DNA of 24,000 nucleotides from Eilatimonas milleporae (GTDB taxonomy: Bacteria; Pseudomonadota; Alphaproteobacteria; Sphingomonadales; Kordiimonadaceae), in the NCBI RefSeq assembly GCF_003688555.1, contig NZ_REFR01000009.1:805187-829186 (forward strand), written 5' to 3'. Under the pieces are notes generated by a model. That model was not told the origin of the DNA. It did not search any database and saw only the letters and a program-made list of their open reading frames with translations. The position numbers and the translations under genes were made by a program. Below are positions 15,358-16,588 of this stretch, piece by piece. Within the stretch, counting starts at the first letter, position 1; each line of letters begins with the position of its first letter.

Positions 15358-15880
15358 TTGAAGTTCCCTAACCTTGGTTTTGTGTTGTCAGGGAAATTTA
15401 TTTGAATATATGAATATAAAAAACGATTTTAAATGATAGAATTATTTCTTAGCAATTGATTTTTATTATTTTCAAAAATTTCTTTTTATGAAATTTTCTT
15501 TCATATTTTTTATGAATAAATTCATTTCTAAGATCATGTAAAACAACAATATTTTTATTTTTCTCTATATAAATTTTTATTCAAGAATGAAATCCGCTTC
15601 ATTTGATGCTGAAATAAAATTGCATTATTTTTATTAAATGATTTTGAAAGAAATATATTGATAGAGAGTTTTTATTCATGCCGCTTGTAACGATCTAAAA
15701 TATATAGATTTTTTAATTTCGCTCACTCATTCCTGTCAAAAAAAATAAATCCCTCTCAATTTTACATCAAAAATTTCACAAATTCCTCGCAGAGCCGTCT
15801 TGCAATAGTGACACATCTCAAAAGTTCGACTTTCGGTTGAATGCTATACCTGACTTTGTGAGGTTCATTGGGGGGTAATC
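15358..15880. promoter_or_regulatory. extremely AT-rich divergent intergenic/control region between the reb operon and the ECF sigma gene
   Basis: I counted 9 G/C in 15421-15480 and 10 G/C in 15481-15540, against flanks well above 50 percent. Contains the tandem tgaatata x2 (15403-15418) and three ATGAA-N(2-6)-TTCAT inverted repeats. Confidence 0.7.
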
Positions 15881-16588
15881 ATGGATCACAGGGACTACTA
15901 CGGAGCGGACAGAAACTTTTCCGAAGCCTGGGGAGACACATATACGATTGTATCAAAACGTCTAATGCCATCAAAACCACCCAAAAGGACCAGCACACTC
16001 GACAAACATCAATCCCGCCTCAACACGCTCCGGCAAAATCACACCGCGCTCCGGCAAAACCACACCACACTGAAACGGCAATTCTGGCTTTCCTGGCACA
16101 AACACAAAGATTATCTGCACAGTCTGAGCATGCGCTGGACAAGTGGCGACCAGCCCACCGCCGAGGACGCGCTGAGTGCGACCGCCTGCAAGGCCAGTAT
16201 CAGTTTTTCAGCGGCCAATGGAAACATCGGCAATGAAAGGGCGTGGTTTGCCCGCATTCTCTATAACCAGTGCATGGACGGGCACCGGCGCCGCAAGGCC
16301 GAAAATGCGCTGAGCGTGGAATTGCTGGCCCCAAGCGCTGAGCCCTCGGCCGAAGACGATATGCTGAACAGCGAATTGCGGCAGGTTCTGGACCGGCTTC
16401 TGAAAGACCTGCCGCCGTCCCTGCGCGGTCCGGTCGTCTCAAGGCTGGTCGACGAAAGCCCCTATGCCGCCATCGCCAAAACATACAAGGTCACGGAAGG
16501 GAACGCCCGCAAGCGCGTTCAGCATGGCAGGGCTATTCTGCGGCGGCGCCTGCGCAAATATCTGACCGCCGGCGAAATCGTCGAATAA
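15881..16588 (+). CDS. ECF-type (sigma-70 family, group 4) RNA polymerase sigma factor with an N-terminal extension
   Basis: Region-2-like AEDALSATACKA....ERAWFARILYNQCMDGHRRRKAE. Region-4-like LPPSLRGPVVSRLVDESPYAAIAKTYKVTEGNARKRVQHGRAILRRRL. GGGGGG RBS before the ATG. About 65 aa precede region 2. Confidence 0.8.
   Translation: MDHRDYYGADRNFSEAWGDTYTIVSKRLMPSKPPKRTSTLDKHQSRLNTLRQNHTALRQNHTTLKRQFWLSWHKHKDYLHSLSMRWTSGDQPTAEDALSATACKASISFSAANGNIGNERAWFARILYNQCMDGHRRRKAENALSVELLAPSAEPSAEDDMLNSELRQVLDRLLKDLPPSLRGPVVSRLVDESPYAAIAKTYKVTEGNARKRVQHGRAILRRRLRKYLTAGEIVE
16026..16067. repeat. 21-bp tandem duplication (19/21 identical) inside the sigma-factor N-terminal extension
   Basis: cgctccggcaaaatcacaccg / cgctccggcaaaaccacacca. 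Encodes LRQNHTA-LRQNHTT. Confidence 0.85.

What the first reader, a model, noticed from the sequence alone, without database searches (positions are those of the whole stretch)
15358..16588. Roughly 520-bp extreme AT island plus divergent ECF sigma factor as the probable reb switch
The intergenic region has about 15-17 percent G+C in the two 60-nt lines I counted, in a genome where most coding lines are far more GC-rich. Such islands are typical targets of xenogeneic silencers (H-NS-like proteins; MucR/Ros in alphaproteobacteria). An ECF sigma factor is transcribed divergently from it. In P. aeruginosa PA14, reb expression depends on a dedicated sigma factor (FecI2) and the regulator RcgA. In Azorhizobium the reb operon is kept silent by PraR. 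A silenced, sigma-gated and possibly bistable promoter would fit the cost of R-body production. The first reb operon genes also have lower G+C than the flanks, consistent with horizontal acquisition.
Basis: partly seen in the sequence, partly recalled or inferred. Interest (0 to 1): 0.6.

Follow-up and report, generated by a model that had tools for sequence, protein, structure and literature searches.

The report
AT-rich pad before R-body sigma gene
A 0.4-kb stretch of extremely A+T-rich DNA lies just upstream of the self-activating promoter of a sigma factor dedicated to R-body (reb) genes; this layout recurs in many marine and soil alphaproteobacteria, but the promoter that this sigma most likely uses for the main reb genes lies 1.7 kb away, outside the island.

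Summary
The g150–sigma gap (15358-15880) has 26% G+C. Its 391-nt core (15394-15784) has 19%, in a 60.5% window where every other intergenic region has 46-74%. The divergent gene (15881-16588) is a true ECF-type sigma factor. The organism is Eilatimonas milleporae.

Comparative work supports "sigma-gated" and refines it.
- Homologues of this sigma sit beside reb clusters in about 30 loci (Sneathiella, Skermanella, Rhodocista, Oceanibacterium, Rhizomicrobium, MAGs).
- A bipartite ECF-type motif, TTCACAA-N-CGTCTT, lies upstream of the sigma gene in 10 of 10 non-Sneathiella loci. Here it is at 15776-15801, on the edge of the island.
- A matrix built only from seven of those sigma-upstream sites finds the same motif about 90 nt upstream of the first canonical rebB gene in 22 of 25 loci. 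Here it is at 14090-14065, outside the island.
- The lowest-G+C 200 nt of the whole locus lies upstream of the sigma gene in 30 of 31 loci. In Sneathiella the sequence of this tract turns over quickly while its composition is kept.

No anti-sigma gene is conserved. A small IS3-OrfA-like helix-turn-helix protein is the conserved last gene of the reb operon.

Silencing by MucR/H-NS-like proteins, bistability and horizontal transfer remain untested. The compositional argument for transfer is weak.

The parts
15358..15880 (.). Divergent intergenic region between g150 and the sigma gene (523 nt, 26.2% G+C)
15394..15784 (.). Core A+T island (391 nt, 19.4% G+C). No Rfam match, no significant fold, no conserved ORF, no significant A-tract phasing.
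   Evidence: A composition-conserved counterpart lies upstream of the sigma gene in 30 of 31 related loci.
15776..15801 (+). Predicted sigma-dependent (autoregulatory) promoter of the sigma gene: -35 TCACAA at 15776-15781 and -10 CGTCTT at 15796-15801. The inferred start is near 15807, giving a leader of about 72 nt.
   Evidence: The same motif, strand and place occur in 7 of 7 non-Sneathiella loci and in 3 of 3 independent loci L076-L078. PWM score 28.6, the best in the window.
15881..16588 (+). ECF-type sigma factor, 235 aa. The sigma2/sigma4 core starts at about residue 66. The N-terminal extension of about 65 aa is not conserved and contains a 21-nt x2 tandem duplication (16026-16066).
14905..15357 (-). 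g150, the first gene on the reb side. No family match and no clear homologue elsewhere; possibly a very divergent Reb-like accessory protein.
   Evidence: hhalign E 0.012, inconclusive
15363..15376 (-). Translation-initiation block CAAGGTTAGGGAAC upstream of g150. It is identical upstream of the first reb-side gene of Rhodocista (L005) and similar in L008.
   Evidence: read directly from the sequences
14874..14895 (-). Terminator-like hairpin just after g150
14212..14727 (-). rebB171, a long RebB-like accessory gene (PF11747, 33 bits), conserved in L004-L007
14162..14187 (-). Perfect 10-bp G+C hairpin after rebB171, followed by a short A+T tract (14136-14161) that lies about 46 nt upstream of the rebB promoter
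   Evidence: read directly
14065..14090 (-). Predicted sigma-dependent promoter of the rebB array: -35 TCACAA at 14090-14085 and -10 CGTCTA at 14070-14065, about 100 nt upstream of the GTG start at 13966
   Evidence: Only hit of at least 13 bits on the reb strand of the whole window. Equivalent sites occur in 22 of 25 loci, a 40-fold enrichment.
11467..13966 (-). Six canonical rebB genes (13652-13966, 13160-13510, 12666-13091, 12261-12584, 11860-12186, 11467-11796)
10974..11420 (-). g148, a conserved Reb-related gene near the end of the operon
10514..10792 (-). 92-aa HTH plus leucine-zipper protein resembling IS3-family OrfA. It is the last gene of the reb operon in about 29 related loci, no transposase gene follows it in the window or in L018, and it is a candidate second regulator.

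Best explanation
The region is the control end of a compact R-body module made of a sigma gene, an A+T tract, the reb genes and a small HTH gene.

The sigma factor (15881-16588) is an ECF-type sigma that belongs to a family found almost only next to reb clusters. It most likely works as a positive-feedback switch. It recognises a TTCACAA-N(15-16)-CGTCTT promoter in front of its own gene (15776-15801). It recognises a like promoter in front of the six canonical rebB genes (14090-14065), whose operon ends with a conserved OrfA-like HTH protein. No anti-sigma gene accompanies the sigma, so its activity would be set by how much of it is made.

The 391-nt A+T island is the DNA immediately upstream of the -35 element of the sigma promoter. 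It also must hold the still unidentified promoter of g150. Related loci keep its composition but not its sequence. It is therefore most likely read by something that recognises A+T-rich DNA as such. The leading candidate is a nucleoid-associated silencer (MucR-type in alphaproteobacteria) that holds the feedback loop off until it is overcome.

Shown here: the island, the ECF nature of the sigma, the synteny, the shared motif and its positions, and the conservation of composition. Inferred: that the sigma binds this motif, that it autoregulates, that a silencer binds the island, and that expression is bistable.
For: Synteny. Sigma homologues (E 1e-21 to 1e-43 by phmmer; 1e-64 to 1e-84 with the family profile) lie next to reb clusters in L004-L034 and L044, with different outer neighbours. 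Two of three further family members taken from the protein database also lie beside RebB genes.

Motif upstream of sigma. It is present in 7 of 7 non-Sneathiella loci and in 3 of 3 independent loci. The background frequency of the exact pattern is 0.27 per kb over both strands and four spacings.

Independent validation. A matrix trained only on the sigma-upstream sites gives 34 hits in the 32 kb that lie 40-200 nt upstream of reb genes on the reb strand. It gives 24 hits in the remaining 900 kb. That is a 40-fold enrichment, seen in 22 of 25 loci, including Sneathiella, which contributed no training site.

No anti-sigma. No conserved gene lies downstream of, or is co-transcribed with, the sigma gene.

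A+T tract. The lowest-G+C 200 nt of the locus lies 250-700 nt upstream of the sigma core in 30 of 31 loci, including L076 and L078, where reb is not divergent. In Sneathiella the A+T core is the least conserved segment: 55-66% identity where the flanking genes have 83-92%. It nevertheless stays at 13-25% G+C.

Literature. PA14 reb expression needs the cluster's ECF sigma FecI2 and is stochastic (PMC8322103). MucR silences A+T-rich DNA in alphaproteobacteria (PMC9410896). The ECF41 promoter signature TGTCACA-n16-CGTC shows that this type of motif is an ECF promoter (PMC3426412).
Against: No transcription or binding data exist for this organism.

The window's rebB-side site is the weakest of the set (14.0 bits).

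Sneathiella sigma genes lack a clean copy of the motif upstream. They carry a perfect palindrome, CACTTTTAAAGTG, instead, so autoregulation may not be universal.

In the high-G+C relatives (L004, L005, L008, L044, L076, L077) the trough is shallow (41-57%). Extreme A+T richness is therefore not required for the module.

Whether Eilatimonas encodes MucR or any other silencer was not checked.

No promoter for g150 or rebB171 was identified; the sigma-70-like matches in the island are at chance level (5 found, 2.9 expected).

The enrichment statistics treat related loci as independent.
Confidence: 0.55

Rival explanations
1. The A+T tract is an activating or purely architectural part of the promoter region. 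It could act as extended UP-element-like DNA, as easily bent or melted DNA, or as a spacer insulating two divergent promoters. It would raise or shape sigma and g150 transcription, and no silencer would be involved.
For: The tract begins exactly at the -35 element of the sigma promoter. A short A+T tract also lies about 46 nt upstream of the rebB promoter. The trough is present, although shallow, upstream of the motif even in genomes of 65-72% G+C.
Against: At 391 nt the tract is far longer than any UP element. A-tract phasing is not significant (z 2.2-2.8; 18% of shuffles reach the observed maximum). For a promoter that feeds back on itself and drives a costly structure, extra activation would need some other brake, and no anti-sigma gene is present.
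Confidence: 0.22
2. One reading: the island itself is the sigma-dependent, silenced promoter of one long reb operon that starts at g150.
For: The island is the only long non-coding region at the head of the cluster, and g150 starts 36 nt from it. In L008 and L027 a sigma-type motif does precede the first reb-side gene.
Against: No sigma-type site lies on the reb strand inside the island. The best candidate scores 11.6 bits with an off-consensus 18-nt spacing. Hairpins follow g150 and rebB171. The only good site on that strand in the whole 24 kb is at 14090.
Confidence: 0.12
3. The island is functionless DNA, such as a decayed remnant or an unconstrained spacer that drifted to the mutational A+T equilibrium. 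The sigma still controls reb.
For: The sequence of the tract is poorly conserved, with identity near the two-letter chance level. No motif, ORF, RNA family or structure was found in it.
Against: The same place is the lowest-G+C spot in 30 of 31 loci from several orders. Other long intergenic regions of the same window stay at 59-65%. A relic would not be expected to persist at one position across several genera while its sequence is replaced.
Confidence: 0.08
4. The sigma factor is only a neighbour. It regulates something else, for example the sugar-nucleotide and polysaccharide genes on its other side.
For: In this window the sigma gene is followed by epimerase, PGI and NTP-transferase genes. 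One family member (L077) has no reb genes within 7 kb.
Against: The outer neighbours differ between genera (DMSO-reductase-like and RecQ genes in L018) while the reb link persists. The motif is found upstream of rebB genes, and no site of at least 13 bits precedes the polysaccharide genes in the window (the next best on that strand is 15.3 bits with an off-consensus 18-nt spacing, inside the 17886-19157 gene).
Confidence: 0.03

Closest known systems
Pseudomonas aeruginosa PA14 reb cluster regulators FecI2 (ECF sigma) and RcgA (PMC8322103)
   Same: A sigma factor encoded inside the reb cluster is required for expression of the structural reb genes. That expression is rare and stochastic, as expected for a costly product. 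Sigma factors co-located with reb genes had already been noted in surveys (PMC3583457 'HP2.3'; PMC13430693).
   Different: No RcgA-like or cyclic-nucleotide-binding regulator is present here. The conserved extra DNA-binding gene is an IS3-OrfA-like HTH. Sequence relatedness to FecI2 could not be tested. No extreme A+T tract is reported for PA14 in the passages read.
ECF237, an ECF group co-located with RebB-domain proteins (bioRxiv 10.1101/2019.12.11.873521)
   Same: An ECF sigma syntenic with several 'killing trait' RebB genes and with no obvious anti-sigma.
   Different: ECF237 is described as mainly from Bacteroidetes, whereas this family is alphaproteobacterial. Group membership was not testable because no ECF group models were available. 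The Melioribacter-type reb loci fetched here have no relative of this sigma within 10 kb.
ECF41 sigma factors and their promoter TGTCACA-n16-CGTC (PMC3426412)
   Same: The promoter signature is nearly the same (-35 TCACA, -10 CGTC, the same spacing within 1 nt). The motif occurs in front of both the sigma gene and its neighbouring target. There is no anti-sigma factor.
   Different: ECF41 is defined by a fused C-terminal regulatory extension of about 100 aa and by COE target genes. This protein ends right after sigma4 and instead has a non-conserved N-terminal extension. It is therefore not an ECF41 member.
PraR / RebR control of the Azorhizobium caulinodans reb operon (PMC5527310)
   Same: The reb operon is kept tightly off, and a cluster-encoded activator is needed for R-body production.
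   Different: There the activator is a Crp/Fnr-type transcription factor with a defined palindrome, and the repressor PraR binds specific sites. Here the activator is a sigma factor, and the candidate repressive element is defined by composition only.
MucR / H-NS-type xenogeneic silencing of A+T-rich DNA (PMC9410896, PMC8857273)
   Same: A strongly A+T-rich tract sits in a G+C-rich alphaproteobacterial genome, next to accessory and potentially harmful genes.
   Different: Known targets are mostly A+T-rich genes or islands acquired horizontally. Here only 0.4 kb of non-coding DNA is A+T-rich and the reb genes have host-like composition. Binding was not tested, and neither was the presence of MucR in this genome.
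IS3-family OrfA proteins, including the IS2 repressor TnpA/InsA
   Same: The last gene of the reb operon has the OrfA layout of an N-terminal HTH followed by a leucine zipper.
   Different: No OrfB transposase gene follows it in the window (an EndoU-like gene comes next) or in L018 (RecQ comes next), and no IS ends were looked for. The gene is conserved in position in about 29 loci as part of the reb operon. That fits a domesticated DNA-binding protein, not a mobile element.

Membership tests
ECF (group 4) sigma-70 family | Only the sigma2 and sigma4 domains are present, with no sigma3 or sigma1.1 | tested here: met
   The core (residues about 66-230) aligns end to end with SigW, SigH, SigE and RpoE structures of 187-218 aa. 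All 13 aligned family members hit Sigma70_r2 and Sigma70_r4_2. TIGR02937 scores 52.7 against a cut-off of 42.9. The window protein alone is just below the Pfam cut-offs.
ECF (group 4) sigma-70 family | Bipartite target promoter of ECF type (-35 with a CA/AAC-like element, -10 CGT), usually also upstream of its own gene | tested here: met
   TTCACAA-N-CGTCTT lies upstream of the sigma gene in 10 of 10 non-Sneathiella loci and upstream of rebB in 22 of 25 loci. This is sequence evidence only; recognition by the sigma is inferred.
ECF (group 4) sigma-70 family | Co-transcribed cognate anti-sigma factor (typical of the family, not universal) | tested here: not met
   The gene downstream of sigma is a convergent epimerase. 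No gene is conserved next to the sigma gene across loci apart from the reb genes.
ECF41 | Fused C-terminal regulatory extension of about 100 aa; COE-family target gene | tested here: not met
   The protein ends about 10 residues after sigma4. No COE gene is adjacent. Only the promoter signature resembles ECF41.
ECF237 (RebB-associated ECFs) | Membership by the ECF-group profile; RebB-domain genes in the neighbourhood | not testable with these tools
   The neighbourhood criterion is met. The group models are not available, and the taxonomy differs from the one described.
R-body (reb) gene cluster | Several RebB-family (PF11747) genes in tandem | tested here: met
   PF11747 hits for 14212-14727, 13652-13987, 13160-13510 and 12666-13091. 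The three further paralogues are 53-89% identical to the 13160-13510 copy. R-body formation itself was not tested.
PA14-type reb regulation (FecI2 + RcgA) | A sigma factor gene inside the reb cluster | tested here: met
PA14-type reb regulation (FecI2 + RcgA) | An RcgA-type transcription factor (HP2.4, cyclic-nucleotide-binding/Crp-like) in the cluster | tested here: not met
   No such domain is present in any large ORF of the window or of the Sneathiella locus L018.
PA14-type reb regulation (FecI2 + RcgA) | Orthology of the sigma factor to FecI2 | not tested
Xenogeneic-silencer (MucR/H-NS-like) target | DNA markedly more A+T-rich than the genome | tested here: met
   19.4% against 60.5% G+C
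Xenogeneic-silencer (MucR/H-NS-like) target | Silencer encoded in the genome and bound to the tract; derepression when it is removed | not testable with these tools
   Only 24 kb of the genome is available, and no binding data exist.
IS3-family insertion sequence | OrfA followed by OrfB (DDE transposase), flanked by inverted repeats | tested here: not met
   Only an OrfA-like 92-aa gene is present. The next gene is EndoU-like in the window and RecQ in L018. The gene is conserved in position at the end of the reb operon in about 29 loci. Flanking inverted repeats were not searched for.

The most novel reading that the evidence does not exclude
The A+T tract is a selected, composition-coded part of a portable switch. 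It would be a built-in landing pad for a host nucleoid silencer, placed immediately upstream of the self-activating promoter of an anti-sigma-less ECF sigma. The silencer-versus-sigma contest would make R-body production an all-or-none, rare-cell decision. The whole module (sigma gene, pad, reb genes and an IS-derived HTH protein acting as feedback regulator) would have spread as one unit among alphaproteobacterial orders.
Probability: 0.25. Interest if true: 0.65.

Novelty: new variant of a known kind. Interest (0 to 1): 0.45.

Why it matters
R-bodies are costly structures whose release is lethal to the producing cell. How bacteria restrict their production to a few cells is understood only in Pseudomonas aeruginosa and Azorhizobium caulinodans.

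This analysis gives a concrete wiring diagram for a third group, which is widespread among marine and soil alphaproteobacteria:
- two predicted sigma-dependent promoters with base-pair coordinates;
- a sigma family that serves as a marker for this type of reb cluster;
- a conserved OrfA-like HTH protein not mentioned in the two reb surveys consulted here;
- an A+T tract whose composition, but not sequence, is conserved.

The last feature would be a clean natural test case for regulatory DNA that is read by composition.

Tried and rejected
- Rfam scan of the whole window: no match.
- Folding of five pieces of the island as single strands: z-scores -0.1 to +1.5, so no structure.
- Small ORFs in the island: only 20-26-aa ORFs were found, and none was followed up.
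- Repeats in the island: only short, degenerate A+T repeats of the kind expected by chance.
- A-tract phasing: z 2.2-2.8 at 10-11 bp; 18% of shuffles reach the observed maximum, so not significant.
- CtrA boxes: none. GANTC sites: none in the island.
- Sigma-70-like promoter matches in the island: 5 found against 2.9 expected, so uninformative.
- Similarity of the island DNA or of the sigma protein to plasmids: none.
- The word-index protein search made the sigma look like an orphan with 2 hits. The exhaustive search, six-frame phmmer on the fetched loci and the profile search showed that this was a sensitivity artefact.
- Sigma-type motif on the reb strand inside the island: absent.
- Shared operator k-mers in the non-Sneathiella intergenic regions: none.
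- The Sneathiella palindrome CACTTTTAAAGTG: absent from the window.
- g150 as a Reb homologue: hhalign E 0.012, probability 3.5%, so inconclusive.
- I first read the ORF at 10514-10933 as an IS fragment marking horizontal transfer. I rejected this once its homologues proved to be the conserved last gene of the operon.
- Composition-based evidence for horizontal acquisition of the reb genes: not found.
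Full report
**Source and layout**

The sigma protein of the window is 100% identical to an NCBI protein of Eilatimonas milleporae (Kordiimonadales, Alphaproteobacteria). The same locus occurs, with an identical island, in metagenome contigs.

On the minus strand the window carries, in order:
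- g150 (14905-15357);
- a long RebB-like gene, rebB171 (14212-14727);
- six canonical rebB genes (13966 down to 11467);
- g148 (10974-11420);
- a 92-aa helix-turn-helix gene (10514-10792).

On the plus strand, divergent from g150, lies a 235-aa sigma-factor gene (15881-16588). It is followed by convergent sugar-nucleotide genes. Further left are an EndoU-like gene, an unknown 321-aa gene, Lrp/AsnC and IclR regulators, a TonB-dependent receptor and metabolic genes.

**Check of the observation**

The island is real and extreme.
- The 523-nt gap 15358-15880 has 26.2% G+C. Its core, 15394-15784, has 19.4% over 391 nt. The lowest 200-nt window has 15.5%.
- The window averages 60.5%. The lowest 300-nt window lies 6.1 SD below the mean of all such windows.
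- This is not ordinary intergenic A+T richness. The other intergenic regions have 46-74%, including two of about 500 nt and two divergent promoter gaps.

The sigma gene is of ECF type. TIGR02937 scores above its cut-off. All thirteen aligned relatives hit Sigma70_r2 and r4_2. The family profile matches only ECF sigma structures in the PDB.

Their G+C and GC3 lie within the range of the flanking housekeeping genes.

**The sigma belongs to a reb-linked family**

The word-index search found only one relative, but that was a sensitivity limit. An exhaustive phmmer search found 551 proteins at E < 1e-10.

I fetched 72 reb loci using an alignment of the window's RebB paralogues and searched their six-frame ORFs. 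Homologues of this sigma lie next to the reb cluster in:
- an Acetobacteraceae MAG (L004);
- Rhodocista (L005);
- Skermanella (L006, L007);
- Oceanibacterium (L008);
- about 21 Sneathiella loci (L009-L034);
- Rhizomicrobium (L044).

They are absent from the Stenotrophomonas, Azospirillum, Duganella, Melioribacter and gammaproteobacterial reb loci.

The genes beyond the module differ between genera. In Sneathiella litorea L018 they are DMSO-reductase-like and RecQ genes. Apart from the reb genes, no gene is conserved beside the sigma gene, so there is no candidate anti-sigma.

Of three more family members picked from the protein database, two lie beside RebB genes in a convergent arrangement (L076, L078) and one does not (L077).

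The conserved core starts at F68 of the window protein. The N-terminal 65 residues or so are present in length but are not conserved in sequence.

**A shared promoter motif**

In all seven non-Sneathiella loci the exact pattern TCAC-N16/17-CGTC lies upstream of the sigma gene on the sigma strand. The consensus is TTCACAA...CGTCTT. In the window TCAC is at 15776-15779 and CGTC at 15796-15799, 82 nt before the ATG. The motif therefore sits on the sigma-proximal edge of the island.

I built a position matrix from these seven sites only and scanned all loci on both strands. Hits of at least 13 bits are 40 times denser in the 40-200 nt upstream of reb genes on the reb strand than elsewhere. There are 34 hits in 32 kb against 24 in 900 kb. 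22 of 25 loci have at least one such hit (binomial p about 1e-34, uncorrected for relatedness).

Sneathiella contributed no training site. Yet nearly every Sneathiella locus has GTCACAtTTTCTCA-N8-CGTCTT about 90 nt upstream of the first canonical rebB gene.

The three independent loci L076-L078 show the motif upstream of the sigma gene or its operon. L076 and L078 also show it upstream of RebB genes, and these are almost the only hits in those loci.

In the window, the only reb-strand hit of at least 13 bits in all 24 kb is at 14090-14065 (GTTGTCACAACTGCCGCGCTCGACCGTCTAAC). It lies about 100 nt upstream of the GTG start of the first canonical rebB gene.

The motif is close to the published ECF41 signature TGTCACA-n16-CGTC (PMC3426412). 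That supports reading it as an ECF promoter. The protein lacks the C-terminal extension that defines ECF41, so it is not a member of that group.

**What this means for the island**

The sigma-type promoter of the main rebB array is 1.3 kb beyond the reb-side edge of the island (about 1.7 kb from its sigma-side edge). It lies behind g150, a terminator-like hairpin (14874-14895), rebB171 and a perfect 10-bp G+C hairpin (14162-14187).

No sigma-type site faces the reb side within the island. The island is therefore the upstream region of the sigma promoter. It must also contain the unidentified promoter of g150.

The link to the sigma promoter is general. The lowest-G+C 200 nt of the whole 10-24 kb locus falls 250-700 nt upstream of the sigma core in 30 of 31 loci. 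This includes L076 and L078, where the reb genes are not divergent from sigma, and L077, which has no reb genes nearby.

The depth of the trough varies:
- 13-24% in Sneathiella and Eilatimonas;
- 30-39% in Skermanella and L078;
- 41-57% in the genomes with the highest G+C.

Among closely related Sneathiella species the A+T core is the least conserved segment. It has 55-66% identity where the flanking genes have 83-92%, close to what a two-letter alphabet gives by chance. It nevertheless stays at 13-25% G+C. Composition is therefore kept while sequence is not.

Nothing else was found in the window's island. There is no RNA family, no significant fold, no significant A-tract phasing, no CtrA box or GANTC site, and no similarity to plasmids.

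**Further regulators**

Sneathiella loci carry a perfect 13-bp palindrome, CACTTTTAAAGTG. It is unique in each locus and lies at the sigma-proximal edge of the A+T tract in 20 loci, about 110 nt upstream of the sigma start. The block around it is conserved as well as the coding sequence is. It is absent from the window.

I first took the ORF at 10514-10933 for an IS fragment. Its homologues turn out to be the last gene of the reb operon in about 29 loci. The protein has about 92 aa, with an N-terminal HTH and a C-terminal leucine zipper like IS3-family OrfA proteins. No transposase gene follows it in the window or in L018.

It is thus a second conserved DNA-binding protein of the module, and it lies in the operon that follows the predicted sigma-dependent promoter. 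Its target is unknown, and I found no shared operator in the non-Sneathiella group.

No RcgA-like or Crp-like regulator is present. This differs from both PA14 (PMC8322103) and Azorhizobium (PMC5527310).

**Most likely mechanism**

The sigma transcribes its own gene and the rebB operon from the two motifs. With no anti-sigma, its activity follows its abundance, so the loop can latch on.

The A+T tract upstream of the sigma promoter is read by composition. The leading candidate reader is a nucleoid-associated silencer such as MucR, which silences A+T-rich DNA in alphaproteobacteria (PMC9410896). It would set the threshold of the loop. The OrfA-like HTH protein may add feedback.

What is shown: the island, the ECF family assignment, the synteny, the motif and its positions, and the composition conservation. 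What is inferred: recognition of the motif by this sigma, autoregulation, silencing, and bistability.

The main rival is that the tract is activating or architectural promoter DNA. The deletion and recoding experiments described under next steps would separate the two.

**Comparison with what is known, and novelty**

Sigma factors beside reb genes are already on record: HP2.3 in PMC3583457, ECF237 and PMC13430693. FecI2 is experimentally required for reb expression in PA14. A dedicated sigma as such is therefore not new.

The following points are new:
- this alphaproteobacterial sigma family and its near-exclusive link to one type of reb cluster;
- the promoter motif with precise sites;
- the location of the rebB promoter outside the island;
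- the OrfA-like HTH gene;
- the composition-conserved A+T tract tied to the sigma promoter.

I rate this a new variant of a known kind and of moderate interest. It would become more interesting if the tract proves to be a selected silencer pad.

Noticed in passing
window 10514-10792 (-); homologues e.g. L018 11339-11665, L007 4323-4637: A 92-aa protein with an HTH and a leucine zipper, resembling IS3-family OrfA, is the conserved last gene of the reb operon in about 29 loci. No transposase gene follows it in the window or in L018. It looks like a domesticated IS protein acting as a module component and possible regulator. The two reb surveys consulted here do not mention it.
   Followed up: partly
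L009-L034 (e.g. L018 7606-7618): The perfect 13-bp palindrome CACTTTTAAAGTG is unique in each locus. It lies at the sigma-side edge of the A+T tract in 20 Sneathiella loci. In one subgroup a second element, ATAC-N4-GTAT, follows about 25 nt away. This is probably an operator for an unidentified regulator.
   Followed up: partly
window 8855-10480 (-): An EndoU-like nuclease gene (PF14436, 26 bits) and an unknown 321-aa gene lie directly beyond the reb module, and only in this species. In PA14 the reb cluster is linked to cleavage of host ribosomal RNA, so a neighbouring RNase-type toxin may be cargo.
   Followed up: no
whole window: GANTC (the CcrM methylation site) occurs 31 times against 106 +/- 10 expected. 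That is strong avoidance. There are no sites in the island.
   Followed up: no
window 16026-16066 and 16602-16647: A 21-nt tandem duplication (2 copies, 95% match) lies inside the non-conserved N-terminal extension of the sigma factor and produces LRQNHTxL twice. A 16-nt repeat of 2.9 copies lies just downstream of the sigma stop codon.
   Followed up: no
window 14136-14187 (-): A perfect 10-bp G+C hairpin (GCGCCGGCGG/CCGCCGGCGC) follows rebB171. After it comes a 26-nt A+T tract that ends about 46 nt upstream of the predicted rebB promoter. It may be a terminator or insulator combined with an UP-like element.
   Followed up: no
window 15363-15376 (-); L005 about 7875-7888: The 14-nt block CAAGGTTAGGGAAC just upstream of the start codon of the first reb-side gene is identical in Eilatimonas and Rhodocista and similar in Oceanibacterium, although the proteins encoded are not detectably similar.
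   Followed up: no
L033: This contig is labelled as a Pseudomonas marincola MAG, but its sigma/reb locus is of Sneathiella type in gene order, palindrome and sequence. Mis-binning is likely.
   Followed up: no
L078 10852-12291; L076 about 6270-6520: L078 has a group II intron reverse transcriptase (RVT_1 + GIIM) inserted within its reb cluster. L076 has three copies of CCGCATGC upstream of its sigma promoter, which may be a lineage-specific operator.
   Followed up: no
proteins P0018, P0024, P0030, P0032 and others: Some relatives of the sigma core are 600-790 aa long, so they are fused to large C-terminal extensions. Their contexts were not examined.
   Followed up: no
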